Shown here piece after piece: positions 39,979 to 59,052 of a DNA stretch of 60,400 nucleotides. The stretch covers positions 1 through 60,400 of the IMG/VR virus record IMGVR_UViG_3300022689_000334. The stretch is one strand, 5' to 3'. Origin of the DNA: a virus. Taxonomy: Duplodnaviria > Caudoviricetes. Positions within the stretch are counted from its first letter, which is position 1. The number at the start of each line of letters is the position of its first letter. Both the position numbers and the translations under genes were made by a program. The notes under the pieces were generated by a model. The model did no database searches. It was not told the DNA's origin and saw nothing but the letters and a program-made list of their open reading frames with translations.

Positions 39979-40587
39979 ATGCTACTTGAATATAGACGAG
40001 GCAATAGCGACAAGTTTTATCGTTGTAACTTAAAGATTAATTTTTCCCTTTCAGGCATTTCTTTCCCCGTCTATCTGGGGAACCTGGACAGGCTATCTGC
40101 CCTGACTCCGATCAGGGACCATCATTATTTTGCCTGTAGACTGGCCAATGCTATTGACCAGGAAATTGCCCCAGGCACCTTCACTCAACTTTGCCAAGGT
40201 ACCGGCATGAGCCTGAATGAGTTCTATGAGGCTATGTGTCAAGCCCTGGAGCGTGACCAGGAGATAGACTACCTGCCGGATGTTCACTATGGCCGCAACG
40301 GCACCAACGGACAACACAAGACTTACCCCGGCGCAGCGTCAACGCTTCCTCCCTGGAGTCGGCTTTATCACTGCATACAGGTGTTGCGTACCAAGGCAAA
40401 TCAAAAGATCAATAAGGGTTATTTAATCATCAACACCGGCATTGATCGGGGAACTGGCCAACGGTTCACCCAGGAATCCCCGGAGGAAAAAGCCCGGAAA
40501 CAAGAACTGGTTGAATCTGAGGCTAGGGAAACTTTGGCTGAAGTCTCCGAACTGTTTGCCCCTTCAGAGCAGGTGTGGATGCTGTGA
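39979..40587 (+). CDS. WGR-domain-like protein with C-terminal WML tail (paralogue 1)
   Basis: GNSDKFY...HYGRNGTNGQ...KINKGY; ends TLAEVSELFAPSEQVWML. Confidence 0.7.
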   Translation: MLLEYRRGNSDKFYRCNLKINFSLSGISFPVYLGNLDRLSALTPIRDHHYFACRLANAIDQEIAPGTFTQLCQGTGMSLNEFYEAMCQALERDQEIDYLPDVHYGRNGTNGQHKTYPGAASTLPPWSRLYHCIQVLRTKANQKINKGYLIINTGIDRGTGQRFTQESPEEKARKQELVESEARETLAEVSELFAPSEQVWML

Positions 40588-41390
40588 AACCGGGACTGGA
40601 GTACGCCAAGCCAGACTTTGATAATCCACCCCGCTTCCTGGCCCATGCCAGGGTAGCTATCTTCCTGGAGGTGGAGCAGATGCCGGTTGTCCTGGATGAG
40701 GGTGGGCGACATCGCATTAATCGCAATCCCTATGATTTTGGGGATATGAAACTACTCCGGTTCCGGTTTCCTTTTGACACCTTTGATGATCTGGCCTGGC
40801 TGGAGCGATACCTGGACAAACACAACCTGGGCAGCGGGGCTGGTCAGCCCGAGGGAGAGAAGTTGCTAACGGCCATGGAAGAGCGCATCTCTCGCAGTAG
40901 GCCCTATAAATACCGGGAGTTCGTGAGTGCCGTAAACCTGGACAGGAGTAGTCATCGTGAGTGGTGTCACATCTCAGATAGGTCTTACGCCTTTCCGAAT
41001 GTTGATCTTAAAGAGCACATGCGGACCCACAGCCGGGGCTATCGGTTTAAGCGGTTCCTGGACTACAGGCCTGAGGATCAGCCGATGACAAGTAACCGCT
41101 TCAAGTCAGGGGTCAGGTTAACCTGCACCTGCTCTCAAGGTTCTGTCCTCACCCCGTCGCTGGGGTCAGGGGCCTTGTCTCAGCTTGTCCCCGGCCTGAG
41201 AGCTGGATTAGAGCGGTGTTTTGCCTACCAAAAGGAACTGCTTGATGATGGTTACCTGCCCATGTATCGGGTTCGTCAGTGGCAGCAGGGGCACTTTGAG
41301 GAACAAGAACGAATCCGGTCAGCCCCGGTCGTGATGGCTGAAATTGCCGAATTATTTACCCCCCTGCCTGATAAAGCCTGGATGTTATGA
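40575..41390 (+). CDS. Hypothetical protein with C-terminal WML tail (paralogue 2)
   Basis: QKELLDDGY helix; ends MAEIAELFTPLPDKAWML; start may be GTG 40584. Confidence 0.75.
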   Translation: MDAVKPGLEYAKPDFDNPPRFLAHARVAIFLEVEQMPVVLDEGGRHRINRNPYDFGDMKLLRFRFPFDTFDDLAWLERYLDKHNLGSGAGQPEGEKLLTAMEERISRSRPYKYREFVSAVNLDRSSHREWCHISDRSYAFPNVDLKEHMRTHSRGYRFKRFLDYRPEDQPMTSNRFKSGVRLTCTCSQGSVLTPSLGSGALSQLVPGLRAGLERCFAYQKELLDDGYLPMYRVRQWQQGHFEEQERIRSAPVVMAEIAELFTPLPDKAWML

Positions 41391-42040
41391 GAACTCCCCA
41401 CCCCACCCCAGACACCTGCCCCGGTGCTAACTTTTTCCTGTTCCAACGCCTTGACCTGGATACGCTGGAGCTGGAGAAGCGTATGGTTAGGGTGTGTATT
41501 GATTTTTTCCCGCCTGAATTCCCTGCAGTGACAGCCTATTTTTATGACCCAGTGAGCTGGATAGATATGGTCCAGCTGCGGAACGACTCCCGATGCAATC
41601 CCCGGCCCGTCACCAGTTGGAGAAATGTCGTTGCCAACTGGCTCTGGAGGCGCAATGAAGCAAGGAACCGCATGCAATCAACAGCAAGGATTGTCTTGAC
41701 CGGCAGCCCGAGCAATCCAATTTCCATTGCTCAGGCTGTTTCTGCCCTGGCCAAGGAAACCTACGCTATCCAAATCTATGTCCAGACCTCAGGGAGTCCT
41801 GGGGAGGCCCCGGAGGCAATTACGGGTAAGGAAGTCGGGTTCACCCCGGAGGCCCTGGGAACGGCCTGCGATGCGGCCAGACAAGCCGTAAAGTCCTGGA
41901 GATCCCAGGGCTTTGAAGACCTGAGCTATGAGGTGGGTTCCCTTGAGCGTAAACGAAAGGCCATCCTCCATGCCCGTCAGACTTTGGCCGAAGTGGATGA
42001 CTTAATGACCGCAAGACCTGACAAGGTCTGGATGTTATGA
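41387..42040 (+). CDS. Hypothetical protein with C-terminal WML tail (paralogue 3)
   Basis: VKSWRSQGF helix; ends TLAEVDDLMTARPDKVWML; ATGA coupling. Confidence 0.75.
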   Translation: MRTPHPTPDTCPGANFFLFQRLDLDTLELEKRMVRVCIDFFPPEFPAVTAYFYDPVSWIDMVQLRNDSRCNPRPVTSWRNVVANWLWRRNEARNRMQSTARIVLTGSPSNPISIAQAVSALAKETYAIQIYVQTSGSPGEAPEAITGKEVGFTPEALGTACDAARQAVKSWRSQGFEDLSYEVGSLERKRKAILHARQTLAEVDDLMTARPDKVWML

Positions 42041-42639
42041 AAGGGTTTGCCGTTAACCGCTGGGGCCGAGTCGTCCTTAACCCCCTGGATGTTGAGATGC
42101 GAACGCTGGGGGTCAAGGTTTCTCTAGGGCCGATTGAGGACCAGACCTACTCTCTGTTGATTCGTCAGCCTAACTACTGGCTGAGGTTCAGGGAGCACCC
42201 CTGGTCTGATGATGGCGGGGAACGACTCTATCGGAGTGGTATTTCAGCCATCTTATGGAGCCAAACTCGAAACCGCTATGTCATGGGTCATGCGGCAGAA
42301 CATTACGCCAAGGTGTATGGCGTTCCCCGTCCTAATGGCATTTCTGGGCGTGGTGGCATTACCTATGGGTACTATCCGGTATCCATCAGCGTTGCCTACC
42401 AGTTCGGCAGCGATCCATTCCAGGAGTGCGATCACGAACCCGGCCTAACCCCGAAAACTGTCAGGGCAGCAACCTCCCTGGCCTGGGCTATGGCAGACCA
42501 GTGGAAACGCGAAGGGTTTGACTATGACGACGGGGGCCAACTGCTCAAGAAACTTCAGGCAACGGAAGAAGCTCAAAGCATCCTGACTGAAGTAGAGGAC
42601 ATCTTTACCCCCCTGCCTGACAAGACTTTCATGCTGTAG
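42037..42639 (+). CDS. Hypothetical protein with C-terminal FML tail (paralogue 4)
   Basis: ADQWKREGF helix; ends ILTEVEDIFTPLPDKTFML; ATGA coupling. Confidence 0.75.
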   Translation: MKGFAVNRWGRVVLNPLDVEMRTLGVKVSLGPIEDQTYSLLIRQPNYWLRFREHPWSDDGGERLYRSGISAILWSQTRNRYVMGHAAEHYAKVYGVPRPNGISGRGGITYGYYPVSISVAYQFGSDPFQECDHEPGLTPKTVRAATSLAWAMADQWKREGFDYDDGGQLLKKLQATEEAQSILTEVEDIFTPLPDKTFML

Positions 42640-42733
42640 GGACTTTGGCCAAACGACTTTGCCCGAAGTGTTGACAGAGGCTTAAACCATGTTAATATTA
42701 AAGGGTAAAGACAAAACACCAAACACCACCGCT

Positions 42734-43018
42734 ATGAATACCTATGCCGCGTCGTTCGGAACCCCTGGAGTCTCTGCTGAAGTGTTGGACTTTTGCCCTC
42801 AGTGTCGTTGGGCTGGTCGCCAGTGGGCCAAGGCTGGTAATACCACCCTGCCCAAGCACATCCAGATTGGCAGTCGCGATGTCCCCATTGTCAGCTCACG
42901 ACATGAGTGGGCCAAGGCATTTGTAGAGGGATGGCGCGAGGTGCTAAGGGAACAAGGCATTACTCCTGGCAGGAAAAAATCTCGCAAACGCACCCGCAAG
43001 GTTGCCGTTGCTGCTTAA
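42734..43018 (+). CDS. Hypothetical basic protein
   Basis: ATG after a TTGACA...TAATAT promoter and leader motif. Confidence 0.65.
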   Translation: MNTYAASFGTPGVSAEVLDFCPQCRWAGRQWAKAGNTTLPKHIQIGSRDVPIVSSRHEWAKAFVEGWREVLREQGITPGRKKSRKRTRKVAVAA

Positions 43019-43061
43019 TCGTTCACCGTCGTTCACCCCGGCTTAGGCCGGGACTCTGTTT

Positions 43062-43643
43062 ATGCTCAAGAAACTTTGGCAAAGACTCCGTGGGAAAGAC
43101 CCAGACAAACCCATCGAAAGCCTGGATGAACTCTGGTACAAACTTCACCTGCTGCCGGATACTGGCTCTCTACCCTCTGAGGTAGTGGCCCCCCTGCTCA
43201 AGCTACGCCAAGAGGCCATCCAGATCAGTAAGAACGAGCAATATCAAGCCTACCTGATTCGCTGGTTGCTGTTCTCTGCCATGGAACTGGCCGATGTTGA
43301 GCCGCAAGTTTTCTCTCTCAATTTTGAGTCAGCGCATGGGCAAGGTTTTTCTGGTCGGTATTCTGGCCTTGACCTGAGGATGACTCACTGGGCTATCCCG
43401 GTGATGGCTGAGAGTCTGGGCCGATACCTGATAGAGAACGGAGGGCCAAACTACATCCAGACCGGCTTTCAGCACCCCAGCTCAAAGCGCATGTTCTCGC
43501 TCACCCTGGCCTGGGAAGAAGGCAAGATGCCAGCCCTGCAGGTGCAAGAACTGAAGACTGAGGTTGCAGAATTGAAAGCCAAGTTAGTCTGTGGCCAATC
43601 CTGCTGTGCATCTGCATTTGAAGAGGAAGAACTTTATGTCTGA
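43062..43643 (+). CDS. Hypothetical protein
   Basis: 193-aa ORF overlapping the start of the sulfotransferase gene. Confidence 0.7.
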   Translation: MLKKLWQRLRGKDPDKPIESLDELWYKLHLLPDTGSLPSEVVAPLLKLRQEAIQISKNEQYQAYLIRWLLFSAMELADVEPQVFSLNFESAHGQGFSGRYSGLDLRMTHWAIPVMAESLGRYLIENGGPNYIQTGFQHPSSKRMFSLTLAWEEGKMPALQVQELKTEVAELKAKLVCGQSCCASAFEEEELYV

Positions 43644-44652
43644 TCCCACCATCGTAGTTACTGGTTTTCCTCGGTCAGGCACCTCTGCCATGATGACCAT
43701 GCTGGGGGCTGCAGGTGTCCCCCTGTACTATGACCACCCCGTAAGCTATGAGACTGAAAAAGCCCTGCAACTGCCGGGGGAGGGGCAATGGCTTGAAGAG
43801 TGTCAGGGTTGTGCAGTGAAAATTCTGGAACCCCTGAAATTTTCACCGCCTCAGGGATTGTCCTACAAGTTTATCTGGATGAGCCGCCGCGCCCCTGATA
43901 TAGCCACCTCTCAAGCAAGGATGCTTAAAGCCCTGGGAAACCTGGATCTGGGTGCTAAGGAACGACGCGACCTGGCTAATTCCTTCATGGCCGACAAGGG
44001 TCCTTCCCTGCGACTGCTGGAGAGCTACCCAAGCAGCCAGCTTCTGGAAATCCGGTTCAGCGACCTGATCAAGGCACCCCAAAAAACTGCCTTCAGGATT
44101 GCTGAATTCCTGGACTTATCCAGCTCGGTAGTTGAGGCAATGGCCGGGGTTGTCCATAAACGCAAACCTGAACCCCTGGTTCAGTCCTGGGAGGTTCAAG
44201 CTCTGAAGAAGGTAGATGCTTACTGCAGGATGGAAGTGTTCTCCAGAGACCCTGGCCAGGAATGGGAACTGCATCAAGAAATCTCCTTCCCATTCCCCTT
44301 TGTTCTTAAGGGGGAAGACCGCAGAGTAAGCGTAGAGATGCGTTCTGGGGCTATTGTTTCAATCTTGCAGTATCCCCATAAACCCGACGTTCTGGGGCCT
44401 GCTCGAAAGGCATTTACCCCGGAGTACGTTGACCGATTCATACCAGCTCTACAGGCCTCTGGCAGGAGTCTCCTGAGAAGAGATTGGTATGTCATGGTGT
44501 ATGGCAAGGAAGCTGACTGTGATCGGGACTGGCAGTTCTTCTCCAGCATGGAGGTTTATAGGGAACTGGAAAACCACCTGCCGAACGACGGGACCCCGGT
44601 TACCTCTACTGAGGCCCCTGACTTTATCAAGTCAGCAGGAACCATTGCCTAA
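43636..44652 (+). CDS. Sulfotransferase-family protein
   Basis: PAPS-binding loop VVTGFPRSGTSAMMTML, FIWMSR...IATSQ, IRFSDLIKAP...IAEFL. Confidence 0.8.
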   Translation: MSDPTIVVTGFPRSGTSAMMTMLGAAGVPLYYDHPVSYETEKALQLPGEGQWLEECQGCAVKILEPLKFSPPQGLSYKFIWMSRRAPDIATSQARMLKALGNLDLGAKERRDLANSFMADKGPSLRLLESYPSSQLLEIRFSDLIKAPQKTAFRIAEFLDLSSSVVEAMAGVVHKRKPEPLVQSWEVQALKKVDAYCRMEVFSRDPGQEWELHQEISFPFPFVLKGEDRRVSVEMRSGAIVSILQYPHKPDVLGPARKAFTPEYVDRFIPALQASGRSLLRRDWYVMVYGKEADCDRDWQFFSSMEVYRELENHLPNDGTPVTSTEAPDFIKSAGTIA

Positions 44653-44662
44653 CCGGAGATTG

Positions 44663-44710
44663 CCCACAAAAAACCCCTGACCAGTTGCCCGGTCAGGGGT
44701 TTTTTGTGGG
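44663..44710. terminator. Bidirectional rho-independent terminator
   Basis: CCCACAAAAAACCCCTGACC-8 nt-GGTCAGGGGTTTTTTGTGGG between convergent genes. Confidence 0.85.
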
Positions 44711-44714
44711 GGTG

Positions 44715-44909
44715 TTAGCGCCAACGTCGGGCAATCTCGTCGGCCTCTACCAGTACGGCCTCATCATCGGTCAGGGTGGCCATCAACATCCGGTGAGCGG
44801 TGAGGCGCTGCTTCCAGGTGTTCCCCCGGTGCTTCCCGGCGCGGATGTCCGCTGCGGCCTGGCCAATCTCGGTCAACATGGATTCCAGGGTTTCAGGTTG
44901 TTTGGACAT
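44715..44909 (-). CDS. Hypothetical protein (self-promoted cassette)
   Basis: GGAGG RBS and leader motif upstream. Confidence 0.7.
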   Translation of the reverse strand: MSKQPETLESMLTEIGQAAADIRAGKHRGNTWKQRLTAHRMLMATLTDDEAVLVEADEIARRWR

Positions 44910-45429
44910 GGTGTGTGCCTCCGTGGCGTGTTTGTCTTTACCCCTTAATAATGCCCCGGTGCTAAATTTAATGCAACTCTGAAACGGTTACAGCGTAAGG
45001 GTTTCAGCCCTTAATCTGCGCTGGTGAATTTTGTCAGGGATATGTTACGGCAGAATCAGGGTTTCAAGGGTCTCTTATCACGAGATTCAGGCTTCGCCAA
45101 CCGGGACCATTCATAGGAATATCTTGTGGTCACTTTGGCCGAAGTGGGATAACCATAACTGCCCCCTATGAATAGCTGTACTAGAGGGGGCTGTAACCCA
45201 CCAGCAGCAAACCTTACAGAGGTTTGTTGCGAAACGGTTACTTTTTGGCAAAAGAAATAAAGGCACCGTGTTTTTTTGGGGGTCTCTTCATGTCCCCTTT
45301 ACGGAATTTGTACCTAAGCCAAATGGCGTATTGGGCCAACTTTTTGTCTTTACTACCTTGCAACTTTGGCCAAAGTCAGGTTAATATATTAACAGGTAAA
45401 CACAAACGCCCCAAAGGAGGCACACCACC

Positions 45430-45573
45430 ATGAAAACCACCACCACCACCGCCAAGCCCGTTACCCTGGACCGTGAGTTTTTCACCTGGCTGGGTTGGCA
45501 AATTGCCATCAACGTTGCTATCGGGTCTACCTGCGGCTTCGCTGCCCAGGCCGTGGTAAACAACCTTTTCTAG
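45430..45573 (+). CDS. 47-aa membrane peptide (not in ORF track)
   Basis: MKTTTTTAKPVTLDREFFTWLGWQIAINVAIGSTCGFAAQAVVNNLF; AAGGAGG RBS and full cassette promoter. Confidence 0.7.
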   Translation: MKTTTTTAKPVTLDREFFTWLGWQIAINVAIGSTCGFAAQAVVNNLF

Positions 45574-45623
45574 GCCGGAAGGCCGTTCCTGAGGCCCTGG
45601 GGCGCTGCCCTGGGGCCTTTTGT

Positions 45624-46127
45624 TTAGGGTCTGAATATTTGGGGCTGGGTGTCCCCGGCCACATACAGGGGGTGCTTTGGGGTGCCCCCTTGATTCAAAG
45701 CCAAGCAGTACACTGGCCCTTTAATCAGGCTCAAGATAGCCTGCTCCCTCTCCGGGGGGCAGTGGGTTCCCCATGCTGCGATCACGATATGAGCATCATG
45801 GGTCCATCGGGCAATAGCCTCGTCATTTCCGGGGCCGAGGGGGTCACGCGCTTGCCACATGACTTCAGGGTAGGGACTGCGAAATCCGTAAGCATTAAGC
45901 ATGACATAGCGTTCACAGTTCCAGTCCTGGGAAAACTTGATACACCGCCTAACGGTGCGGTCGTTCGTGGTCTCATCAGCGGTGCTGGGGTTTAGCCCAA
46001 TCCAGACCGCTGTTCTGGGGGTGTCCGTGATCGCCCACTGTCGCCATAGCGCATACCGCCAGGTCCTGCAGGGGGAGAATTCTGCCCCGGAGTCATCCAG
46101 TAGTCCGATCTGCACTTGCTCTGTCAT
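45624..46127 (-). CDS. DUF1643 family protein
   Basis: FSPCRTWRYALWRQW, IGLNPSTAD...D.TVRRC, IAAWG, G.PKHPLY. Confidence 0.88.
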   Translation of the reverse strand: MTEQVQIGLLDDSGAEFSPCRTWRYALWRQWAITDTPRTAVWIGLNPSTADETTNDRTVRRCIKFSQDWNCERYVMLNAYGFRSPYPEVMWQARDPLGPGNDEAIARWTHDAHIVIAAWGTHCPPEREQAILSLIKGPVYCLALNQGGTPKHPLYVAGDTQPQIFRP

Positions 46128-46411
46128 GACTTTCCCTTTGCTGTCCAGCCTGGATGCCGCCGAACCTGATTCCACTTGCACACGAACGCCTCGGGTTCCC
46201 ACAGCCATGCTTCTTTATCCGCACTGTAGCGCCCTGGGATAAATGAGCATCGTTCTGAATTAATCATATCTACATACGCCTGAGAGACCTTGACCCAGAT
46301 GCGCTTGGGAGTGACCTGGATAATCTCATTTCCGTACTGGTCAATGTCCCCCACCTGAGGGGGCTTCGTGGCCTTCAGGAATCCTTGCCGGTCTGTGGCT
46401 TTGATGATCAT
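46124..46411 (-). CDS. Hypothetical protein
   Basis: Leader motif upstream; ATGA coupling to the DUF1643 gene. Confidence 0.65.
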   Translation of the reverse strand: MIIKATDRQGFLKATKPPQVGDIDQYGNEIIQVTPKRIWVKVSQAYVDMINSERCSFIPGRYSADKEAWLWEPEAFVCKWNQVRRHPGWTAKGKS

Positions 46412-46487
46412 GGCGGTGTTGGGTGTGGTGTTTTGTGTTTACGTTCAGGCCATCCCCGGAGGTCAACGCCTCCGAGGATGGGGGTGG

Positions 46488-46646
46488 CTACTGCCGACCG
46501 AGCCAGGACACGTACTCAGCGCCAATCTGTATTTTGCGCTGCAGCTCAGGCCCATCCAGGGGTTGAGCAAAATATCTGGCCTTGTCCTGGGCTACCTCAG
46601 GGGACCAACCGTATTGCGTTTGAAAGAACTCAGATAGGGTCTGCAT
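46488..46646 (-). CDS. 52-aa protein (not in ORF track)
   Basis: MQTLSEFFQTQYGWSPEVAQDKARYFAQPLDGPELQRKIQIGAEYVSWLGRQ; AAGGAGG RBS and full cassette promoter. Confidence 0.7.
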   Translation of the reverse strand: MQTLSEFFQTQYGWSPEVAQDKARYFAQPLDGPELQRKIQIGAEYVSWLGRQ

Positions 46647-50690: not shown

Positions 50691-50714
50691 GTAAACACAA
50701 AACACCACAGAGTG

Positions 50715-50845: not shown

Positions 50846-50973
50846 CTTAGAGGGATGGCTTAATACCTGGCTTAAATTTTCAAAATACCCTTGCGACTTT
50901 GGCCGAAGTACCTTACACTTATTAACAAGTAAATACAAAACACCATTACAGGCCCACAGCGAGGTAACACACT

Positions 50974-52320
50974 ATGACGTACTCAACACTCAACCGACAA
51001 CTTCAGGGATTCGGGATTAGCACAGAAGTTTTCTTGATGGACTTTGTCCTACAGGCTGGTCGCAATGAAGCCAGTCTGCCAGCCAAGATCTTGCAGAAGG
51101 AAGGACTAGACCTGAGCGATGAAGGGGTTACTTCTTCCTCAGTTGCCAAGGAACTGTTTCAAGCCACCTATCAGGGTGAGCTGGTGACGGTGCTTGACCA
51201 GAATGGCGAGGAAGTGCAATTGGTTAAGCCGGGGGAAACCGTGACTCTGTCTTGGGCGCGGAACAAGCTGGCCAACCTCGTTCAGTGGATTCAGGAATTA
51301 GGAGAGCACCTGAGCCGTAAAGAGGGCTGGATGTTCTCGCGGGAGGACTTACCTGAGGTTATGCGTAGGGTAGAGTTCATCCAGAACCGGCGCGATCAGG
51401 TCTTGCAAATCCTGATTGAGGTTCACGCTGAGGCTGAGGAAGCCTGGTACAGCCGGGTTGATCGCATCACGGCCAAACTGCAACGGGTGCTGGAATCCGA
51501 GATTGCTGCAGCTCAGGCCAAGGTAGACCAGGCCCAGGCGCACACCGGGGGAGTTCAGGAGGTTGATCAGAAGCGCCTCCGGAACCTGCAAAAGGAACTG
51601 GAGAAACTGCCTCAACTCACCGCAAAGCTACGGGATAAGTTCCCCTCCGTGAGCGAGTTACGGGATGGGTTTATCTTTAGCAACACCACCCCCAAAGAGA
51701 TGCCCTCCATCCTGGCCAACCTGCAGGGGAACGCCCAGGCCATGGACGCTATCGTTCAGGCTGAGACTGCCGAGCAGGGACAAGCCTATGCCCAGGCTCT
51801 CCGCAACGGAATTTCCCTCATGGGTGAAACCATCCGGGAAAAGGTTCAGGACTTGAGCGATGCGTTCTACGGCCATATTGCTGACTCCCTGGCTCTGCTG
51901 GAAGACCTGGGGCCGAACAAGAAGTTTGGAACTAAGGTGTCTGGTCAAATCGAGGGACACATCCAACGAATCGGGGTCCTGTACCGTCTTCTCCGGGGCT
52001 TTGAGGCCCTGAACGAGGGTAACGGTATTGACCAGTCTGAACTCATGGTCAAGCTGGAAGAGTTTAGGAACGCCTTTGCAGAGGATGCTAAGCAGGATAA
52101 GAACCGCTGTGTAGGCAATGGTCGGGATGCGCTCATTTCTCGTCTACAAGCCTTCCGCAAAGATCTGCAGCAGGTTACCCTGATAGCCGAGATTGAGGAC
52201 CTGGGATTGGGCGGTGAACGGTTCATTGAGTGGCTGGATGTGCCGCCCGAGGAAGTCATTGCCGAGGCACCCATCACCCGCCAGGGGGCTGATGTGAGCG
52301 AACTGGCTGTAATGCTCTAA
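50974..52320 (+). CDS. Coiled-coil protein, DUF3150-like, with C-terminal AVML
   Basis: GWMFS...helical run...FPSVSELRDGFIF; family call tentative. Confidence 0.55.
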   Translation: MTYSTLNRQLQGFGISTEVFLMDFVLQAGRNEASLPAKILQKEGLDLSDEGVTSSSVAKELFQATYQGELVTVLDQNGEEVQLVKPGETVTLSWARNKLANLVQWIQELGEHLSRKEGWMFSREDLPEVMRRVEFIQNRRDQVLQILIEVHAEAEEAWYSRVDRITAKLQRVLESEIAAAQAKVDQAQAHTGGVQEVDQKRLRNLQKELEKLPQLTAKLRDKFPSVSELRDGFIFSNTTPKEMPSILANLQGNAQAMDAIVQAETAEQGQAYAQALRNGISLMGETIREKVQDLSDAFYGHIADSLALLEDLGPNKKFGTKVSGQIEGHIQRIGVLYRLLRGFEALNEGNGIDQSELMVKLEEFRNAFAEDAKQDKNRCVGNGRDALISRLQAFRKDLQQVTLIAEIEDLGLGGERFIEWLDVPPEEVIAEAPITRQGADVSELAVML

Positions 52321-52408
52321 TTCACACCGCAGGGAGGTGGTTGACAGGCCCCTCCCTGTCCCCTAAAATTATTAACAGGTAAATACAAAACACCGGAGGC
52401 TTAAGCCA

Positions 52409-53050: not shown

Positions 53051-53657
53051 TCTGGGAGATGCCATCAAGCAAAACCTGGGGGCCGGGGAAGACGCAACCA
53101 TCCAGGTCACCCCTGATGCCCTGGTTATCACCCCGGCCCCCATTGACCCGGAGGGGGAGGGGTTCACCTGGAACGGGGTTACCTATCGCCCCGGCGACTG
53201 GGTGCGCCATCGTCGGCCCCATGAGAACGACTGGGGCGTAGCCTTCCAGTTGGCTACCTGCAAGATTGCTGCAACCTTTGACCGGGGGAACCCGGATGTC
53301 AATTTCTCATGCCGGTTCCCGATGGGCTTAGGCACTATGCGCTACGGCGATCAGGTCAAGTTTGCCACCTGGCAGGATTATGATGCGCTCATGTCTCGGG
53401 CGCTAGAAGCTCATCCCCTGGCCTTCAACCCTGGACCCCAGCTAGGGGGGAGAACCAAGAAGAACGACTACAACCGCCTGGGAGAGCTATACACAGACAC
53501 CCCGATAGGGGCTATTGACTGGGCAACCTGGAAGCGTTGTGACAAGGCTCAGAACGGTGAATACTTCAAGGTTGTGATGTGTAATGCCGTCCTGAACGAT
53601 CTGGAGAAAGCCCGTGAGTTGAGCCAATGGTTGAGGGGGCGTAACGATGGCCTCTAA
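53043..53657 (+). CDS. Hypothetical protein
   Basis: GGAGG RBS before MSDLGD. Confidence 0.7.
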   Translation: MSDLGDAIKQNLGAGEDATIQVTPDALVITPAPIDPEGEGFTWNGVTYRPGDWVRHRRPHENDWGVAFQLATCKIAATFDRGNPDVNFSCRFPMGLGTMRYGDQVKFATWQDYDALMSRALEAHPLAFNPGPQLGGRTKKNDYNRLGELYTDTPIGAIDWATWKRCDKAQNGEYFKVVMCNAVLNDLEKARELSQWLRGRNDGL

Positions 53658-53985
53658 CTTGCTGTGGGACATGCTCAACCTGGCCATCCCTTTGCACATG
53701 GCTCGACTGAAAGAACAGGGTGGGCCCACAGACGCAGACTTAGAGACTTTGGCCGAAGCGCAGTCTGTCTTAGAACGGGCTGACTCCGTGTTGTTGTTTC
53801 ATACCCAACAAGCCAGACCAGGGGAGGTTGCTGATGCCTTTAATCTCACAGCTCGGGCCTATGCCATCCTGTCGTTCTGTCCTGGAGGGGTGACCTTTGG
53901 CGGGGTTAACTACAGTGCAGAGCAGTTCAGGCAAGCACTAGACGAAATAGACAGATCTTACGAGGTGGATAACTCAGATGGGTAA
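53647..53985 (+). CDS. Hypothetical protein
   Basis: Overlapping operon arrangement; LSFCPGGVTFGG motif. Confidence 0.7.
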   Translation: MASNLLWDMLNLAIPLHMARLKEQGGPTDADLETLAEAQSVLERADSVLLFHTQQARPGEVADAFNLTARAYAILSFCPGGVTFGGVNYSAEQFRQALDEIDRSYEVDNSDG

Positions 53986-55063
53986 GAGCACAATCCAGTG
54001 GACGGACAACACGATTAATCCAGTCCGCCCGAAAGAAGACCCGGATGTTCCGGGTATCTATGGCTGGTTCTGTCAAAAGGTTTCTGGGGACCCGGCCTGT
54101 GCAAACTGTTACTCAGAGGACTTGAACTTAAGTTCCCGCATGGGAGGCAACCTGAGACCTTTTCAGGGGCAACCGCCTGAGATGGAGCTGGTCACGACCC
54201 GGCTGGACGAGTTCCTGAGGAAGACTAAGGCTGAGATCTGGTTTTGGGGGAGTATGACAGATCTGTTTGGGGCCTGGGTGCCTGACGCCTGGCTCATGGA
54301 TATCCTGGATACGGCCTACGCCAAACCAGAAATGAGAAGCCTGTTTCTGACCAAACGTATTGACCGGGCCTATTTCATCATCAAGCGTTGGCTCAAGCGT
54401 AAGGGTCTGGAGCAACTGCCCCTGCACATAGGGATAGGAACCACGATAGGCAACCAGCGTTGGGCCAATGAACGTTTACCCTGGCTGGTCTCCATCCCGG
54501 CAGAGTTCCGGTTTGTCAGTGCTGAACCCCTAATCACTGGGGAACGCACGTTGCAGATGCCCCGATATTTTCCGATGCCCCGAGCCTTGCATGAGACCCT
54601 GGGATTGACAAAGGCAGTCACAGAGTCCAGCATTGAGGTCTTTCCTCGCCATTCCCCGGTCATCCACTGGGTAATGATGGGCGGTGAGTCAGGCAGTATC
54701 AAAAAAGTTCGGCCCTTCTTCCTGGGGCCTGCAGAGGACTTTGCTAAGCGTCTGTCTGAGACCGGGGCAAAGGTGCTCTGGAAACAACTGGGGCGATACC
54801 CCATCATCCCCAGCCTTGACCGAGACCCGGAAATCCGGACCGGATGGGACTTGGTTGAGTACATGCAGGAATGGCCAGATGGAACCACCTTCGGCAACCG
54901 GAAGACGGGGGCTTACTACCGTCCCCGGTTCAATGGCCGTCAGGTGATTCTCAAGCACAAGAAAGGCGGGGACTGGGATGAATGGGCACCCCGCTACCGA
55001 GTAAGAGAGTTCCCGTTTGACCTGGCCAGCTTAGCTGAGGCAAGGGGAGGGGTAGCAGTTTGA
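53978..55063 (+). CDS. DUF5131 (phage Gp37/Gp68) family protein
   Basis: STIQWTD.T.NP, C.KVS..CANCY, SMTDLFG, LTKR, FVSAEPL, WVMMGGESG, WKQLG, KKGGD..EW...VREFP. Confidence 0.9.
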   Translation: MGKSTIQWTDNTINPVRPKEDPDVPGIYGWFCQKVSGDPACANCYSEDLNLSSRMGGNLRPFQGQPPEMELVTTRLDEFLRKTKAEIWFWGSMTDLFGAWVPDAWLMDILDTAYAKPEMRSLFLTKRIDRAYFIIKRWLKRKGLEQLPLHIGIGTTIGNQRWANERLPWLVSIPAEFRFVSAEPLITGERTLQMPRYFPMPRALHETLGLTKAVTESSIEVFPRHSPVIHWVMMGGESGSIKKVRPFFLGPAEDFAKRLSETGAKVLWKQLGRYPIIPSLDRDPEIRTGWDLVEYMQEWPDGTTFGNRKTGAYYRPRFNGRQVILKHKKGGDWDEWAPRYRVREFPFDLASLAEARGGVAV

Positions 55064-55686
55064 TACAGGGTTCACATCACCCTGCACACATCCCTGAGTC
55101 GTTACGACAACTTAGGGATGTTCCGTTGGCCCCGATACAACCCCTCCGTGATCGCAGGGGGATGGGTCGATATGCCTGGTGCATGGGCGGGATAAAGTCC
55201 CGACATTGGCGATATACCGAATGGGGAGACCTGCAGGGACATCCCGTCTGCCCAGAATGCGCCCTGATCGTCATGCAACGGGCTGGGCTGGGTAGACGGT
55301 TCCCCTATAAGACCGAGATCAAGCCTGAGCTGGGCGGGGTGGCCAATGGCAGGCCCAGGCGGATCATGGCAGGGTACCGGATTAAGCCGGGGCCAAGACC
55401 CGCAAGAACCAAGCGTAAATCCCTGAGGGACAAACGGAGACAGGCCGTAGCTCAGGCCCTCATGACTGGCCCCAAGACCCGCAGACAGTTACTTGCCCTG
55501 ACCTACCCGGATGGGTCGCCCGTCTTCAAGACCCTGAATGCGCTCAGCACTTTTCTCAGTAAGCACATGCGTGAAGACCTGACTGGCCTTAGGTTAAGAG
55601 GGAGGGGGGCAAACAAAATTGAGTTAACAACTTTGGCCAAAGTAAAGTGGGGAAATAAATTTAAGCCACCCCTTGACATCCCATAA
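55060..55686 (+). CDS. Basic hypothetical protein (CPEC motif, possible C-terminal winged helix)
   Basis: Coupled to the DUF5131 gene, GGAGG RBS. Confidence 0.55.
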   Translation: MIQGSHHPAHIPESLRQLRDVPLAPIQPLRDRRGMGRYAWCMGGIKSRHWRYTEWGDLQGHPVCPECALIVMQRAGLGRRFPYKTEIKPELGGVANGRPRRIMAGYRIKPGPRPARTKRKSLRDKRRQAVAQALMTGPKTRRQLLALTYPDGSPVFKTLNALSTFLSKHMREDLTGLRLRGRGANKIELTTLAKVKWGNKFKPPLDIP

Positions 55687-55761
55687 GCCAGACCCTATCA
55701 TTAAGTTATTAACGGGTAAACACAAACACCCAAAAAAACACACGCTATCGCAGAGGACTGT

Positions 55762-56397
55762 ATGTCGCATTTCACCACTCTTAAAGGCAAGTTTGCATCT
55801 GTTCGACAGATGATTGATGCCCTGCAATTTATGGGCGTTCCCCTGAACGAAATCCTGATTGACAAGGCCCTGGGAGTCTTTGAGGGTACCCAGCAAATGG
55901 ATGCCCCCCGCAAGACCGTATCTTCCCGGTTCAGGAACACTCGCAGCGAACAACCCTGTCAGATCATCGTGACCGAAAAGGGAATGAAGGCCATGGCTGA
56001 AGCTGCTGAAGCCAAGCAGAATTGCGGCTACAGCATGAGAAAGAGTGAAGGCAACATCGGTATCTTCAAGGATCAAGATGCTGAGTTTGGCTTCTATGAC
56101 TGTGGCTGTGAGGAAAATCCCGGCTTTGTGCCAGCAACGGACCCCTATGTATCGGGTGAAGAAATGGTCGGTTACTTCACCGCCTGCTACGAAATCATGG
56201 GCCTCCGGGGGAACAAAGACCTGGAGGTGAGCCAGATTGCTCGGGATGAAGACGGTAACTTCATCCTTCAGGTTCGCAAACCTCAGAAGCAAGGCAAGTT
56301 TGCTGCACTGGGCAGTGCATTTGGCGGCCTGGGTGGCGGCAGCGGCCTGGGCAGTGGCAAGCGTCGTCGGGGAGTTCTCGGCCTCGGTTCTCGTTAA
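55762..56397 (+). CDS. DUF1257 / Ycf35-like protein
   Basis: MSHFTTLK...ALQFMG start, IGIFKDQDAEF, EDGNFILQV. Confidence 0.75.
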   Translation: MSHFTTLKGKFASVRQMIDALQFMGVPLNEILIDKALGVFEGTQQMDAPRKTVSSRFRNTRSEQPCQIIVTEKGMKAMAEAAEAKQNCGYSMRKSEGNIGIFKDQDAEFGFYDCGCEENPGFVPATDPYVSGEEMVGYFTACYEIMGLRGNKDLEVSQIARDEDGNFILQVRKPQKQGKFAALGSAFGGLGGGSGLGSGKRRRGVLGLGSR

Positions 56398-56453
56398 CCC
56401 CTAATCCGTTTCAATTTCCTACTTCTAAACCTTCATTTTTTAGGACTGAACCC

Positions 56454-56753
56454 ATGCGATTTAACCTGAACTTCTCCCTTCCCAAATTCCTTAAGGACTG
56501 GAATGCTAGAGCCTTTGCCCCTCGTGAGGATGACGAACTGTACGCCAACCTAGTCATTAGCCCTAAGACCGGGGAAATGACCATTGACGTAAAGAACGGT
56601 GACGGCACCAACTGTCAGGAATTGACAGCAGAGATTGAGAAATCCCGAGGTGGTGCAGATAGCAAGGAATTCAAGCCCGAGTTCCGTCGCACTCAGATCG
56701 GCACTGAACAGCACAAGACCCGGTCTACCGGTCGCAACACGCTGAGTCACTAG
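56454..56753 (+). CDS. DUF2997-family protein
   Basis: ISPKTGEMTIDVKNGDGTNCQELTAEIEKSRG...KPEF. Confidence 0.7.
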   Translation: MRFNLNFSLPKFLKDWNARAFAPREDDELYANLVISPKTGEMTIDVKNGDGTNCQELTAEIEKSRGGADSKEFKPEFRRTQIGTEQHKTRSTGRNTLSH

Positions 56754-56913
56754 GCTCACCCTGGGGCGGCTTAAGCTCTAACCCTGACCCTGCTTAAGCC
56801 GCCAAATTTATTGAAAATATTGTTGACACCTGATATTTTTTTCGTTAAAGTTGTAAACAGGTAAAGACAAAACACCTAACACACCACACCACGACACCGA
56901 GAGGAATTTTCCA

Positions 56914-59052
56914 ATGGCTCAAGTAACCACCAAAACAACTGCTTCCAAGACCCGCAAAGTTCGGGCACCTCACAGGACCAACGCTGACTTGATGGCTGAG
57001 ATCAGCGCCAAGTTTGGTTCTGCCACCTCCATCATTTCCGTCACCTTCCAGGACAGCCAAGAACAGACTGTTCTGCATGACCTGGCTTCCCTGACCTGTC
57101 CCCGGTTCAATAAGTATCGGAATAAGGGACTATCTGACGCTAAGGCTACTGAACGGGCGCAGGCGCTCATCACCGGCTACGGTAGTGACTACCAACTTCC
57201 CGAACAGTCGTTCATCCAGGACGTGCTCAAGAAAGGTGAAGTCGGTATGAGTATTGACTTCGGTATCTATACCTTTGACACTGGTCGGGGAATTTGCCGC
57301 GGCGTAGTCATCGGGGGTCGCCTGGAGTTCCTTACCCTTCAGGAAGTCGGCACTCGCCTGGAGCGGGTGATGAGCGCTAAGAAACGCGCTGCTAACATAG
57401 CCACCTCCAGCACCATCAATACCCAGCAGCTTGATGCTCTGGCCAGTGAATTCAACCTGCAGAATAAGACCCCTGAGGAAATCGTTAACTTCCTGCAACT
57501 GCATGGGGAAGTGCTGACCAACGCTTTCAACTCCATGGCAGGGCTGGAGATTGACAAGAACAAAATGAATGAGGCTCAGCTTCTGGCTACTTTCCTGGAC
57601 TGGCTCGGGCCTGAAGGGGATGCTGGTAACGGGGTTTTCGTTGCCCTGGACTTTCACAACGTCATTCAGCACAATGACCGTTTCGTGTCTGAAATCCAGC
57701 GTCGCATTAAGAACCTGGCTCATTACCTGCCTCGGGTTCACCGTCGCCTCATCCTGGCCGGTTCCCGCATGGATCTCACCAGCGCAGTGGGCGAGGGTCT
57801 GGTTCCTCATCTGGAGCTAAAGCTTCCCCAGCAGGAAGAACTTGCCTTTCGCATTGACCGTAAGCTGGAGTCCATCAAGGTCAGCGTCAGAGAGCGCAAG
57901 GTGATAGACACCCTAAGCCCTGAAGAGCGCACCTTGCTTCACAGAGCAGCGCAGGGTCTTCCCGTCGAGGAAGTTGAAACGGTGTTGCTTGAGAACACGA
58001 TTGGTTGCGCCGTAGGGACTGAGAACCCTGTCGTGATTGACAGTCGGTTGATTGAGGCCATGAATGCGGCCAAGATTGCCAAGCTCAAGAAGTACAAGGT
58101 TGAACTGGCCCCGGCCCCGGATGTTCCCGCTGGTGGGATGCCTAACCTCAAGGTTCTGCTCAACCGGTCAAAGCGTCGGTTCTGGGCCGTTGAGAATCAG
58201 GCTGAACAACCTACCGGCCTGAAGCTCAAGTTGCCTAACGGCATCCTGATTACCGGGATTACCGGATGTGGTAAGAGCTTGATTGCCAAGACTGTGGCCA
58301 AAGAGTGGGGAGTTCCCCTGATTAAGCTCAGCATTGGCGGTCTCTACAGCAAGTTCGTTGGAGAAACTGACGAACGGTTCCGCAAGGTTCGCGAACTCAT
58401 CAATGCCTGTGCCCCTGCTGTGGTCCTGATTGATGAGATTGACAAGGGCCTAGGTGCTGCTGCCTCTGGACACTCCGGGGACTCTGGCACCAGTGATCGC
58501 CTGATCGGTGACTTCCTTACCTGGATGCAAGACCGTGAGGCCAACATCTTCTTCATTGCCACTGCCAATGACATCTCTGCCATACAGCAACATAAGCCGG
58601 AACTACTCCGCAAAGAGCGCTGGGATCACATCGTTTTCGTTGACCTGCCCAATGCTCAAGAACGGGAAGAGATCTTGGCCACCCACCTGCTGGATATTCA
58701 CTACGGGGATGAGAGCAAGGTGTTTACCGGGGATGAGATGGCCCAGGCCGTTGCAGCTACGGCCAGCTTCGTCGGGGCTGAGCTAGCCAGTGCGGTCGGT
58801 GCTGCTGCTGACTTTGCTCTGGATGCTGGACGACAGTTCATCTCCCTGGATGACTTCCTGCAAGCCGCAGGGGAGATCAAGCCCATCGCAGTATCCACTA
58901 AAACAACCGTGGATCGCCTCCGGGGCTGGGCGGCTAAGAATGCCGTCCGTGCCAACGGTGACCCTGACCCTGAGACTACCGGTCAGGCCACCACTCCTAC
59001 CCGACGCAGCGAGGTAGAAACCCCTTCCGCTGACAAGGCCGTTATGTTGTAA
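56914..59052 (+). CDS. Ycf46-like AAA+ ATPase with C-terminal DKAVML
   Basis: GGMPNLK, GILITGITGCGKSLIAK, IDEIDKG, DSGTSDRLIGDFLTWMQ, ATAND, PELLRKERWD..FVDLP, LRGWA. Confidence 0.9.
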   Translation: MAQVTTKTTASKTRKVRAPHRTNADLMAEISAKFGSATSIISVTFQDSQEQTVLHDLASLTCPRFNKYRNKGLSDAKATERAQALITGYGSDYQLPEQSFIQDVLKKGEVGMSIDFGIYTFDTGRGICRGVVIGGRLEFLTLQEVGTRLERVMSAKKRAANIATSSTINTQQLDALASEFNLQNKTPEEIVNFLQLHGEVLTNAFNSMAGLEIDKNKMNEAQLLATFLDWLGPEGDAGNGVFVALDFHNVIQHNDRFVSEIQRRIKNLAHYLPRVHRRLILAGSRMDLTSAVGEGLVPHLELKLPQQEELAFRIDRKLESIKVSVRERKVIDTLSPEERTLLHRAAQGLPVEEVETVLLENTIGCAVGTENPVVIDSRLIEAMNAAKIAKLKKYKVELAPAPDVPAGGMPNLKVLLNRSKRRFWAVENQAEQPTGLKLKLPNGILITGITGCGKSLIAKTVAKEWGVPLIKLSIGGLYSKFVGETDERFRKVRELINACAPAVVLIDEIDKGLGAAASGHSGDSGTSDRLIGDFLTWMQDREANIFFIATANDISAIQQHKPELLRKERWDHIVFVDLPNAQEREEILATHLLDIHYGDESKVFTGDEMAQAVAATASFVGAELASAVGAAADFALDAGRQFISLDDFLQAAGEIKPIAVSTKTTVDRLRGWAAKNAVRANGDPDPETTGQATTPTRRSEVETPSADKAVML

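What the first reader, a model, noticed from the sequence alone, without database searches (positions are those of the whole stretch)
39979..59052. Shared C-terminal '-(W/F/V)ML' tag links four WGR-like paralogues to a distant AAA ATPase and a DUF3150-like protein
Seen: six proteins end in ML-COOH with a similar preceding context: ELFAPSEQVWML (39979), ELFTPLPDKAWML (40575), DLMTARPDKVWML (41387), DIFTPLPDKTFML (42037), GADVSELAVML (50974) and ETPSADKAVML (56914, Ycf46-like AAA+ ATPase). The last two are unrelated in fold and lie 8-16 kb away, so the tail is not simply inherited by gene duplication. All lie in units carrying the same leader motif. Inference: a terminal docking or sorting signal (common adaptor, protease degron, capsid-loading or membrane-complex recruitment). 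It would define a multi-component system: AAA motor, DUF1257/DUF2997 partners, DUF3150-like scaffold and diversified WGR-like subunits. I know of no description of such a system.
Basis: partly seen in the sequence, partly recalled or inferred. Interest (0 to 1): 0.85.

Follow-up and report, generated by a model that had tools for sequence, protein, structure and literature searches.

The report
Shared C-terminal tail in phage ATPase module
Six proteins of a cyanophage-like genome, including an AAA+ ATPase and proteins unrelated to it, end in the same short hydrophobic peptide, which most likely docks them all onto one partner inside a gene module of unknown function found on phages and plasmids.

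Summary
Six of 61 ORFs of 100 aa or more end in [W/F/V]ML-COOH, against about 0.12 expected, and no other ORF of 50 aa or more in six frames does. The terminal Leu uses four different codons and three different stop codons follow, so the signal is in the protein, not the DNA.

The ATPase tail matches the tandem proteins' tails over 13 residues. None of 601 background C-termini scores as high.

The 448-aa protein, the ATPase, a DUF1257-like and a DUF2997 protein form a conserved module. It recurs in two Nodosilinea elements, where the two orthologues again end hydrophobically (..GLLI/..GILI and ..GLNL). A shorter form on Nostocales plasmids adds a WGR-domain protein.

Five of eight distant homologues of the 448-aa protein carry a linker ending in a hydrophobic L/I tail.

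Best reading: a docking peptide comparable to the proteasomal HbYX/GQYL tails. The receptor is unidentified.

"Four WGR-like paralogues" is only partly right, and the leader motif occurs across the whole genome. A crude test of tail sharing across eight lineages was not significant (p = 0.13).

The parts
39979..40587 (+). Tail-bearing protein 1 (202 aa), borderline WGR-like, ends ..ELFAPSEQVWML. First gene of a four-gene operon.
   Evidence: ORF. Pfam WGR 22.7 bits against a cut-off of 22. It shares only the last ~25-30 aa with the other three.
40584..41390 (+). Tail-bearing protein 2 (about 268 aa from the GTG at 40584; the ORF list starts it at 40575), ends ..ELFTPLPDKAWML.
   Evidence: GTGA stop/start overlap. 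The C-terminal 40 aa are related to proteins 3/4 (hhalign prob 93%). No family hit.
41387..42040 (+). Tail-bearing protein 3 (217 aa), ends ..DLMTARPDKVWML. ATGA overlap with the gene before it.
   Evidence: Full-length paralogue of protein 4 (BLASTP E 6e-12).
42037..42639 (+). Tail-bearing protein 4 (200 aa), ends ..DIFTPLPDKTFML. Last gene of the operon; the next promoter is at 42671.
   Evidence: The AF2 model was unusable (pLDDT 32) and there were no Atlas leads.
50974..52320 (+). DUF3150-like protein (448 aa) in its own transcription unit. A disordered tail (residues 426-448) ends ..GADVSELAVML.
   Evidence: Eight remote homologues. Nodosilinea orthologues at 35-38% identity. AF2 pLDDT 71 overall, with the tail at about 30. 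DUF3150 leads only; no Pfam hit.
55762..56397 (+). DUF1257-like protein (211 aa); no ML tail.
   Evidence: BLASTP E 5e-12 to the Nodosilinea protein in the same position. The N-terminal 43 aa match true DUF1257 proteins (hhalign prob 90%, E 1.4e-6). No Pfam hit at E<=0.1.
56454..56753 (+). DUF2997 protein (99 aa); no ML tail.
   Evidence: Pfam PF11211 33.5 bits against a cut-off of 24.1. Homologous to the Nodosilinea and Nostocales module proteins.
56914..59052 (+). Long AAA+ ATPase (712 aa), classical AAA clade. It has an N-terminal region (about residues 1-237) not matched in the ~500-aa homologues found, and a ~30-aa P/T/S/G-rich C-terminal extension ending ..ETPSADKAVML.
   Evidence: PF00004 E 4e-25. 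Similar to PAN/FtsH/CDC48. Homologues of about 500 aa lack the tail. Nodosilinea orthologues are 38% identical over residues 15-695.
50927..50943 (+). Leader motif copy ahead of the 448-aa gene (one of 15 across the genome).
56823..56875 (+). Sigma-70-like promoter (TTGACA-17-TAAAGT) plus leader motif ahead of the ATPase gene.
39918..39929 (+). Variant leader motif ahead of the four-gene operon.
1151..2191 (-). 346-aa protein. About 100 aa of it resemble the gene that sits just upstream of the DUF3150-like gene in Nodosilinea. Possible further module neighbour.
   Evidence: BLASTP 34-35% identity, E 2e-9 / 1e-8. No family hit.

Best explanation
The tail is a short linear docking peptide. Its consensus is acidic-x-[A/V/T/G]-[hydrophobic]-[M/N/L]-[L/I]-COOH. 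In the ATPase and the DUF3150-like protein it sits at the end of a disordered linker. In the four tandem proteins it follows a conserved helix and a 'TPLPDK' turn.

I propose that all six tails fit one socket, and that the socket belongs to the module itself: the AAA / DUF1257 / DUF2997 core or the ATPase's extra N-terminal region. The DUF3150-like protein and four proteins with different heads (one WGR-like) would thereby be brought to the ATPase as adaptors or clients. The ATPase's own six tails would use the same socket, either for ring-to-partner docking or for self-competition. This is how the unrelated proteasome activators Mpa and Bpa share GQYL.

Shown: the tail is real, selected at protein level and shared by unrelated proteins; the module is conserved; and the tail is kept in kind in orthologues.

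Inferred: that the tail binds anything, that there is a single receptor, and that the receptor is encoded in the module.
For: (1) Enrichment and position. Six of 61 proteins carry the tail against about 0.12 expected, and it is almost exclusively C-terminal.

(2) Protein-level selection. Of the 7 degenerate codons that give identical residues in the ATPase tail and the tail of tandem protein 2, 5 differ. Nucleotide identity is 24 of 42, so this is not a recent DNA copy.

(3) The ATPase tail is related to the tandem tails over 13 residues (scores 33/30/20; background maximum 11 of 601).

(4) The tails are appended. The ~500-aa homologues end at the conserved ..LR.WA..R..PA segment, whereas the phage ATPase runs about 30 residues further. 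Residues 426-448 of the 448-aa protein are predicted disordered.

(5) The module is conserved. All four core genes have homologues side by side in Nodosilinea loci L008/L009 (37%, 27%, 36-39% and 38% identity). Short-type clusters were seen in 5 further genomes and on 27 Nostocales plasmids.

(6) Orthologue test.
- The Nodosilinea DUF3150-like proteins end ..DLGLLI/..DLGILI. The last 6 residues score 13 against the phage tail, which 0 of 505 background tails reach.
- The Nodosilinea ATPases end ..SDGLNL.
- The pattern [AGVT][VLIWF][MNL][LI]$ hits 4 of 601 background ORFs, and all four are these orthologues. Within their contigs it hits 2 of 45 and 2 of 74 ORFs.

(7) Of the 8 remote homologues of the 448-aa protein, 5 have a P/A/T/S-rich extension ending hydrophobically..RALMI..AFAML..VELLI..LTAYL and ..AGLNL. 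The last equals the Nodosilinea ATPase tail.

(8) Precedent. Bpa was found because it shares the last four residues, GQYL, with the AAA ATPase Mpa, after a poorly conserved stretch (PMC4254994, passages read).
Against: - No receptor is identified.
- Conservation of the ATPase tail between phage and Nodosilinea is weak by score: 34-38 of 505 background tails do as well.
- The within-Nodosilinea similarity of the ATPase and DUF3150-like tails is modest: 4-13 of 505 over the last 4 residues and 21-39 of 505 over the last 6.
- A pre-set, crude permutation test over 8 lineages was not significant (ATPase tail against the best neighbour tail; matched mean 15.0 against mismatched 13.6; p = 0.13). Tail sharing is therefore not shown to be a general property of such modules.
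- Only two independent long-type lineages are available.
- One homologue (P0066) and the Nodosilinea LEGE locus L010 lack the tail. In L010 that loss is part of the same single deletion that removed DUF1257, DUF2997 and the ATPase gene, so it counts as one event, not as independent co-loss.
- The four tandem proteins have no homologues anywhere searched, so their tails cannot be checked in relatives.
- The pattern used in (6) was widened after seeing the Nodosilinea tails.
Confidence: 0.5

Rival explanations
1. The tail is a degradation or remodelling tag. A non-polar C-terminus on a flexible linker would be engaged by an unfoldase pore, either a host protease (ClpXP or FtsH type) or the phage's own AAA ATPase. 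This would give these proteins a short, timed life or make them clients of the ATPase.
For: - The ATPase belongs to the unfoldase clade (PAN/FtsH/CDC48 models).
- The tails are disordered and terminal.
- Recognition of non-polar C-terminal residues by bacterial cytoplasmic proteases is established knowledge (recalled; no paper read here).
Against: - The tail does not match the recalled ssrA-type ..LAA ending.
- The ATPase itself carries the tail.
- The tail is kept on plasmid-borne orthologues, where timed phage expression is not an issue.
- In the four tandem proteins the conserved unit is 25-50 aa including a helix, which is more than a degron usually needs.
Confidence: 0.2
2. The tail binds a conserved host hub used in DNA replication or repair, for example the sliding clamp, whose partners also carry short hydrophobic C-terminal peptides.
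For: - In other phages the AAA-DUF1257-DUF2997 genes lie next to replication genes: O-like initiator, DnaB and PolI in Rhizobium phage RHph_I4; O-like initiator in Aeromonas phage HJ05; HTH protein and DnaB in Rhodobacter phage RcTiptonus; ParB, Ku and a clamp gene in Mycobacterium phage Dylan.
- In this genome an O-like initiator and DnaB follow within about 7 kb across the record's ends.
- The phage encodes no polymerase among the proteins scanned.
Against: - The recalled clamp-binding consensus (QL[SD]LF / QLxLxL) needs a Gln that no tail has.
- Tails differ between phage (AVML) and Nodosilinea (GLNL/GLLI), and short-type modules end in basic/aromatic peptides. That is unexpected if the receptor were a highly conserved host protein.
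- No binding test was possible.
Confidence: 0.12
3. The tail is a capsid-loading or sorting signal that sends these proteins into the procapsid or to a membrane complex.
For: C-terminal cargo peptides are known for HK97-fold shells (encapsulins; recalled).
Against: - The orthologous module sits beside ParB on cyanobacterial contigs and plasmids without head genes.
- The phage's major head protein, its scaffolding-like protein and one further protein share a different tail, VHP. That tail is the better candidate for a head-related signal.
Confidence: 0.05
4. There is no common function. The four tandem tails are inherited by duplication, and the two distant ones arose by chance or by an old transfer of a short segment.
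For: - Four of the six are neighbours that share a C-terminal module.
- Short-peptide similarity is noisy: mismatched lineage pairs scored up to 22.
Against: - Even counted as three independent families the excess is large (about 0.12 expected for ML alone).
- The heads of the tandem proteins have diverged beyond recognition while the tail module is kept.
- Synonymous sites in the tails are scrambled.
- Orthologues and remote homologues of the 448-aa protein keep a hydrophobic L/I terminus.
Confidence: 0.1

Closest known systems
HbYX / GQYL C-terminal docking motifs of proteasome activators (PAN/Rpt, Mpa, Bpa/PafE, Cpa)
   Same: An AAA ATPase and proteins unrelated to it in sequence share the last four residues, placed after a poorly conserved stretch, because all dock on one partner. 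Bpa was discovered by exactly such a genome search for a shared C-terminus (PMC4254994, passages read; PMC8142254 and PMC6017811 seen as search listing and abstract starts only).
   Different: There is no Tyr at the penultimate position, where the tails have M/N/L. No 20S proteasome is expected in cyanobacteria (recalled). The docking partner is unknown, and six rather than two or three proteins carry the tail.
Ycf46 / Ycf35 (DUF1257) / DUF2997 genes of cyanobacteria and plastids
   Same: The ATPase is 33-36% identical to Ycf46-type proteins over about 50-60% of its length. DUF2997 and DUF1257 genes are known neighbours in cyanobacteria (PMC4284462, one passage read).
   Different: The phage and Nodosilinea ATPases have an extra ~237-aa N-terminal region and a tail. 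Housekeeping Ycf46 proteins end ..EYQR(L/M)EF (13 of 59). The mobile-element module adds a DUF3150-like protein and a WGR protein. No function is published for any of these families in the library searched.
Class II PDZ-type C-terminal ligands (hydrophobic-x-hydrophobic-COOH)
   Same: [W/F/V]-M-L-COOH fits the recalled pattern.
   Different: No PDZ domain was found among the phage proteins scanned. Bacterial PDZ proteases are mostly extracytoplasmic (recalled).
Hub-binding C-terminal tails in replication (SSB acidic tail, clamp-binding peptides)
   Same: Many unrelated proteins share a short terminal peptide on a flexible linker, and related modules lie among replication genes.
   Different: The sequence fits neither recalled consensus.

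Membership tests
HbYX / GQYL proteasome-docking tails | Hydrophobic residue, then Tyr, then any residue at the extreme C-terminus (GQYL in actinobacteria). | tested here: not met
   All six tails have Met, not Tyr, at the penultimate position. The Nodosilinea tails have N or L there.
HbYX / GQYL proteasome-docking tails | The same terminal motif is shared by an AAA ATPase and non-homologous partners, after a variable linker. | tested here: met
   The ATPase and the 448-aa protein both end in AVML, after linkers that are poorly conserved or disordered.
HbYX / GQYL proteasome-docking tails | Docks into a ring-shaped protease core. | not testable with these tools
   No receptor is identified.
AAA (PF00004), classical clade, Ycf46-like | AAA domain plus lid, with similarity to SpoVK/Ycf46/Vps4-type ATPases. 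| tested here: met
   PF00004 at 89 bits. AAA_lid_3 at 19 bits, below its cut-off. Ycf46-named homologues at 33-36% identity.
DUF2997 (PF11211) | Score above the Pfam gathering cut-off. | tested here: met
   33.5 bits against 24.1 for 56454-56753.
DUF1257 / Ycf35 (PF06868) | Score above the Pfam gathering cut-off. | tested here: not met
   No Pfam hit at E<=0.1 for 55762-56397. Only the first 43 residues (the MSHFT.. start) match true DUF1257 proteins (hhalign prob 90%). The gene's position next to DUF2997 and the ATPase agrees. It is therefore called DUF1257-like, not a member.
DUF3150 (PF11348) | Score above the Pfam gathering cut-off. | tested here: not met
   No Pfam hit. Leads only: Atlas feature score 0.90 and TM 0.54/0.69 to clusters in which 13-14% of members carry DUF3150; a BFVD row named DUF3150 at prob 0.82.
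WGR domain (PF05406) | Score above the Pfam gathering cut-off. | tested here: inconclusive
   Protein 1 scores 22.7 bits against a cut-off of 22, covering residues 79-148 only. A profile comparison with five true module WGR proteins gave 1% probability, although it aligned the WGR signature. Proteins 2-4 have no hit.
Clamp-binding peptide (QL[SD]LF / QLxLxL, recalled consensus) | Gln at the first position, with hydrophobic residues at positions 4 and 5/6. | tested here: not met
   No tail has the Gln; the position holds D/E/S. The consensus is recalled and comes from no call.
ssrA-type ClpX tag (..LAA-COOH, recalled) | Terminal Ala-Ala. | tested here: not met
   All tails end in ML.

The most novel reading that the evidence does not exclude
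The ML tail is the docking code of an undescribed AAA+ remodelling machine carried by phages and plasmids, built from an ATPase, DUF1257, DUF2997, a DUF3150-like protein and a WGR-type protein. In it the ATPase and its adaptors or clients compete for one socket, as proteasome activators do. This phage has expanded the adaptor set to four tail-bearing proteins with diversified heads, perhaps to recognise different DNA or protein targets during replication, partition or counter-defence.
Probability: 0.3. Interest if true: 0.8.

Novelty: new variant of a known kind. Interest (0 to 1): 0.62.

Why it matters
DUF1257 (Ycf35), DUF2997, Ycf46-type ATPases and DUF3150 are widespread families with no assigned mechanism. 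They occur in cyanobacteria, plastids, phages of several phyla and large plasmids. The full-text searches for these names found no functional study.

A shared terminal peptide gives a direct experimental handle: peptide pull-downs and tail deletions can define who binds whom in the module. This approach revealed the proteasome activator Bpa.

The conserved placement beside replication, partition and DNA-end genes suggests where to look for the function.

Tried and rejected
Close relatives of the phage.
- IMG/VR scans with the 448-aa protein, the ATPase and the terminase found none.
- GenBank phages have no match to the 448-aa protein. Matches to the terminase, portal and ATPase are distant, about 35% identity or less.
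- A degenerate DNA pattern for 'PDKxWM(L/F)-stop' gave 7 IMG/VR hits, all in non-coding frames.
- Word-based protein searches found only self hits for the 448-aa protein and for the four tandem proteins.

Contigs of the remote homologues.
- P0065 and an alignment of the three closest sequences were not found in JGI metagenomes or IMG/VR.
- The first genome scan failed. The second gave the three Nodosilinea loci.
- No match to the 448-aa protein in PLSDB plasmids.
- The long N-terminal region of the ATPase was found in only 1 of 401 (phylum sample) and 2 of 173 (order) cyanobacterial genomes.
- The long-type DUF3150-like profile was found in 2 of 401 genomes, one of them weakly.
- An IMG/VR scan with the ATPase alignment returned 66 loci. 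I examined the six best: four carry a DUF2997 hit (one of them also a weak DUF1257-like hit), and none had a DUF3150-like or WGR hit with my profiles. The other 60 were not examined.

Structure.
- The AF2 model of tandem protein 4 was unusable (pLDDT 32), and the Atlas gave no lead for it.
- The 448-aa model has no PDB match at E<=0.001.
- Profiles of the DUF1257-like, DUF2997 and DUF3150-like alignments have no meaningful relative among solved structures.

Complex prediction. ATPase residues 1-430, the DUF1257-like protein, the DUF2997 protein and a 40-aa tail module returned 'no answer' (score 0.00, controls not run). This is evidence neither way.

Defence libraries. PADLOC gave only generic AAA similarity (IetA, TRIP13) and a weak ZorA stretch.

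Rejected readings.
- A nucleotide-level motif.
- The leader motif as a link between the units.
- General tail covariation across eight lineages (p = 0.13).
- Independent co-loss of tail and ATPase in L010; it is a single deletion.

Not seen.

Full report
What the window is. The window is a complete 60,400-base virus record. It carries head, portal, terminase and lysis genes on the minus strand, and replication and accessory genes on the plus strand. It has no close relative in GenBank phages or IMG/VR by the terminase, portal, ATPase or 448-aa protein. The nearest relatives of the genes studied here are in Nodosilinea, a filamentous cyanobacterium.

The observation.
- Among 61 non-overlapping ORFs of at least 100 aa, six end in ML, where about 0.12 are expected. 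No other ORF of at least 50 aa in any frame does.
- [WFV]ML occurs only four times internally in about 17,000 residues.
- The terminal Leu is coded four different ways and followed by all three stop codons. A DNA or RNA motif therefore does not explain the tails.
- Scored in register with BLOSUM62, the ATPase's last 13 residues (SEVETPSADKAVML region) score 33, 30 and 20 against tandem proteins 2, 4 and 3. The best of 601 background C-termini scores 11.
- The ATPase and the 448-aa protein score 17 over the last six residues, which none of 601 reaches. The 448-aa tail resembles the tandem tails less well: 3-12 of 601 background tails score as high over the last six.
- Between the ATPase tail and the tail of protein 2, 8 of 14 residues are identical. 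Five of the seven degenerate codons behind those residues differ. The similarity is therefore old and kept at protein level.

The four tandem genes. They form one operon with overlapping stops and starts (GTGA, ATGA, ATGA), ending just before a promoter at 42671.
- They are not four recognisable paralogues. Proteins 3 and 4 align over their full length (24% identity, E 6e-12).
- Protein 2 shares only about 40 C-terminal residues with them (hhalign 93%).
- Protein 1 shares only about 23-30.
- The constant element is a C-terminal module: ..A..TLAEV.ELFTPLPDK.WML.
- Only protein 1 touches the WGR model (22.7 bits against a cut-off of 22). A profile of true WGR proteins from related modules aligned just its WGR signature, at 1% probability.
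- None of the four has a homologue in the 5.8-billion-protein collection by word search or in the related loci.

The module. The 448-aa protein had no word-search relatives. An exhaustive HMMER search of 1.84 billion representatives found eight, from 50% down to 22% identity.

A genome scan then found three Nodosilinea loci. In two of them (L008, L009) the homologue is followed by a DUF1257-like gene, a DUF2997 gene and a 718-720-aa ATPase. That ATPase is 38% identical to the phage ATPase over residues 15-695, including the N-terminal region that ordinary Ycf46-type proteins lack. ParB and a ParA-sized gene lie nearby.

A shorter form was found in five other cyanobacterial genomes and on 27 Nostocales plasmids, 17 of them typed conjugative and including pCC7120alpha.
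- Its gene order is a 352-362-aa protein, DUF1257 (once or twice), DUF2997, an 85-aa protein, a ~540-aa ATPase and a WGR-domain protein. This order holds in all nine loci I inspected.
- The 352-362-aa protein is related to the 448-aa family by profile comparison (95%, E 1.7e-8).
- The WGR protein scores E 1.4e-20.

ATPase-X-DUF1257-DUF2997 cores also occur in phages of Aeromonas, Rhizobium and Rhodobacter, next to O-like initiators, DnaB or PolI. In Mycobacterium phage Dylan the ATPase lies next to ParB, Ku and a clamp gene.

In this genome an O-like initiator and DnaB lie about 4-7 kb downstream of the ATPase gene, across the ends of the record.

I found no paper on the function of DUF3150, DUF2997 or DUF1257. 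The searches were for 'DUF2997'/'DUF1257' (5 papers; passages read in two), 'DUF3150' (1 paper, listing only) and 'Ycf46'+'Ycf35' (17 papers, listing only; the 15 titles shown concern organelle genomes).

Are the tails kept in relatives?
- Ycf46-type homologues do not have them: 0 of 59 end in ML. The 13 cyanobacterial 503-506-aa proteins end ..EYQR(L/M)EF. The phage ATPase runs about 30 residues, rich in P, T, S, G, D and E, beyond the family's usual end.
- The Nodosilinea orthologues do keep a tail of the same kind: DUF3150-like ..DLGLLI/..DLGILI and ATPase ..SDGLNL.
- The pattern [AGVT][VLIWF][MNL][LI]$ hits 4 of 601 ORFs from all other loci, and all four are these orthologues. Within their contigs it hits 2 of 45 and 2 of 74 ORFs. 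I widened this pattern after seeing the Nodosilinea tails.
- By score, the DUF3150-like tails of phage and Nodosilinea agree well (13 over six residues; 0 of 505 background). The two ATPase tails agree poorly (34-38 of 505). Within Nodosilinea, ATPase against DUF3150-like is modest (4-13 of 505 over four residues; 21-39 of 505 over six).
- Of the eight remote homologues, five carry a P/A/T/S-rich extension that ends ..RALMI..AFAML..VELLI..LTAYL or ..AGLNL. Two stop at the end of the globular part, and one (P0066) has a short non-hydrophobic end.
- P0066 resembles the Nodosilinea LEGE locus L010. There a single deletion removed the last 25 codons of the gene together with the DUF1257, DUF2997 and ATPase genes. 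That is one event, so it is not independent support.
- A crude test over eight lineages asked whether an ATPase tail resembles the best neighbour tail more in its own locus than in others. It was not significant (15.0 against 13.6, p = 0.13). I therefore do not claim a general rule, although the Nostocales proteins do end in look-alike basic/aromatic peptides.

Structure. With nine sequences, AF2 gave a usable model of the 448-aa protein (pLDDT 71). It has an alpha/beta domain with a long helical hairpin, then a helical bundle, and residues 426-448 are disordered. It has no PDB match. Its best viral matches are uncharacterised phage proteins, one named DUF3150 and one from phage Dylan, in line with the Atlas leads. 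'DUF3150-like' is therefore a fair label but not a family assignment, since Pfam gives no hit.

Interpretation. The data fit a short linear docking motif: terminal, on a flexible tether, shared by unrelated proteins that belong to one conserved gene set, and kept in kind in orthologues.

The closest precedent is the GQYL/HbYX tail. The AAA ATPase Mpa and the unrelated ring protein Bpa share their last four residues because both dock on the 20S core, and Bpa was found by searching a genome for that shared ending (PMC4254994).

I place the receptor inside the module, for three reasons:
- the tail sequence differs between phage, Nodosilinea and short-type modules;
- the tail travels with the module on plasmids;
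- the ATPase itself carries it.

This placement is inference. A degron, a host hub such as the sliding clamp, and capsid loading remain possible and are weighed under the rival explanations. Capsid loading is the weakest, since the head proteins share a different tail (VHP). The one complex prediction allowed gave no answer and counts neither way.

Verdict. The mechanism is plausible but unproven. It is a new variant of a known principle, set in a module of unknown function.

Noticed in passing
window 30353-31303 (-), 31345-31761 (-), 26921-27904 (-): There is a second shared C-terminal tail, VHP-COOH. It is on the major head protein (phrog_1005, E 1e-66), a head-scaffolding-like protein (phrog_673, E 2e-23) and a 327-aa methyltransferase-like protein (phrog_15480, E 6e-7). 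The codons differ between the three, so the signal is at protein level. By my own rough arithmetic, about 0.004 such endings are expected in 61 proteins. It could be a head-assembly or capsid-targeting signal.
   Followed up: partly
window, 15 sites, e.g. 52377-52393, 56859-56875, 25857-25873 (-): A leader motif, GGTAAAnACAAAACAC, occurs across the genome just downstream of TTGACA-N17-TAAAAT-type promoters, on both strands. There are 15 matches at <=2 mismatches against 0.15 expected. It is followed by C/A-rich leaders. Its function was not examined.
   Followed up: partly
L058-L061 and L042-L046 (Nostocales plasmids and contigs): In the short-type module the three large proteins end in look-alike basic/aromatic peptides..S(F/L)K(F/L)R..(R/K)(F/Y)RNMN..RFRTN..RFRNLN or ..RFNLN; and ..KN(F/L)WRH(F/L/I). 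The DUF1257 proteins end ..RR. This is suggestive of the same principle but is not supported statistically.
   Followed up: partly
L010 against L009 (Nodosilinea): One deletion (L009 11257-14768) removed the tail-coding end of the DUF3150-like gene together with DUF1257, DUF2997, the ATPase gene and the start of the next gene.
   Followed up: yes
L064 (Mycobacterium phage Dylan), L057 (Rhizobium phage RHph_I4): The related ATPase gene sits beside ParB, Ku and a clamp gene in Dylan. In RHph_I4 the ATPase, DUF1257 and DUF2997 genes sit beside an HTH protein, DnaB and PolI. This hints at a role in DNA transactions.
   Followed up: partly
window 35340-37934 (-): The portal protein (Mu-type, E 4e-60) carries a C-terminal Mu F-like domain in the same 864-aa ORF.
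   Followed up: no
window 59991-60400, continuing at 1-78: An ORF runs off the end of the record. If the ends are joined it closes after 162 aa in a GPDP-repeat stretch. This suggests a circular or circularly permuted record. No terminal direct repeat of 11-200 bases was found.
   Followed up: partly
window 43591-44652, 45624-46208 (-), 53978-55063: Accessory genes in the region: a sulfotransferase-like protein, a DUF1643 protein and a DUF5131 protein.
   Followed up: no
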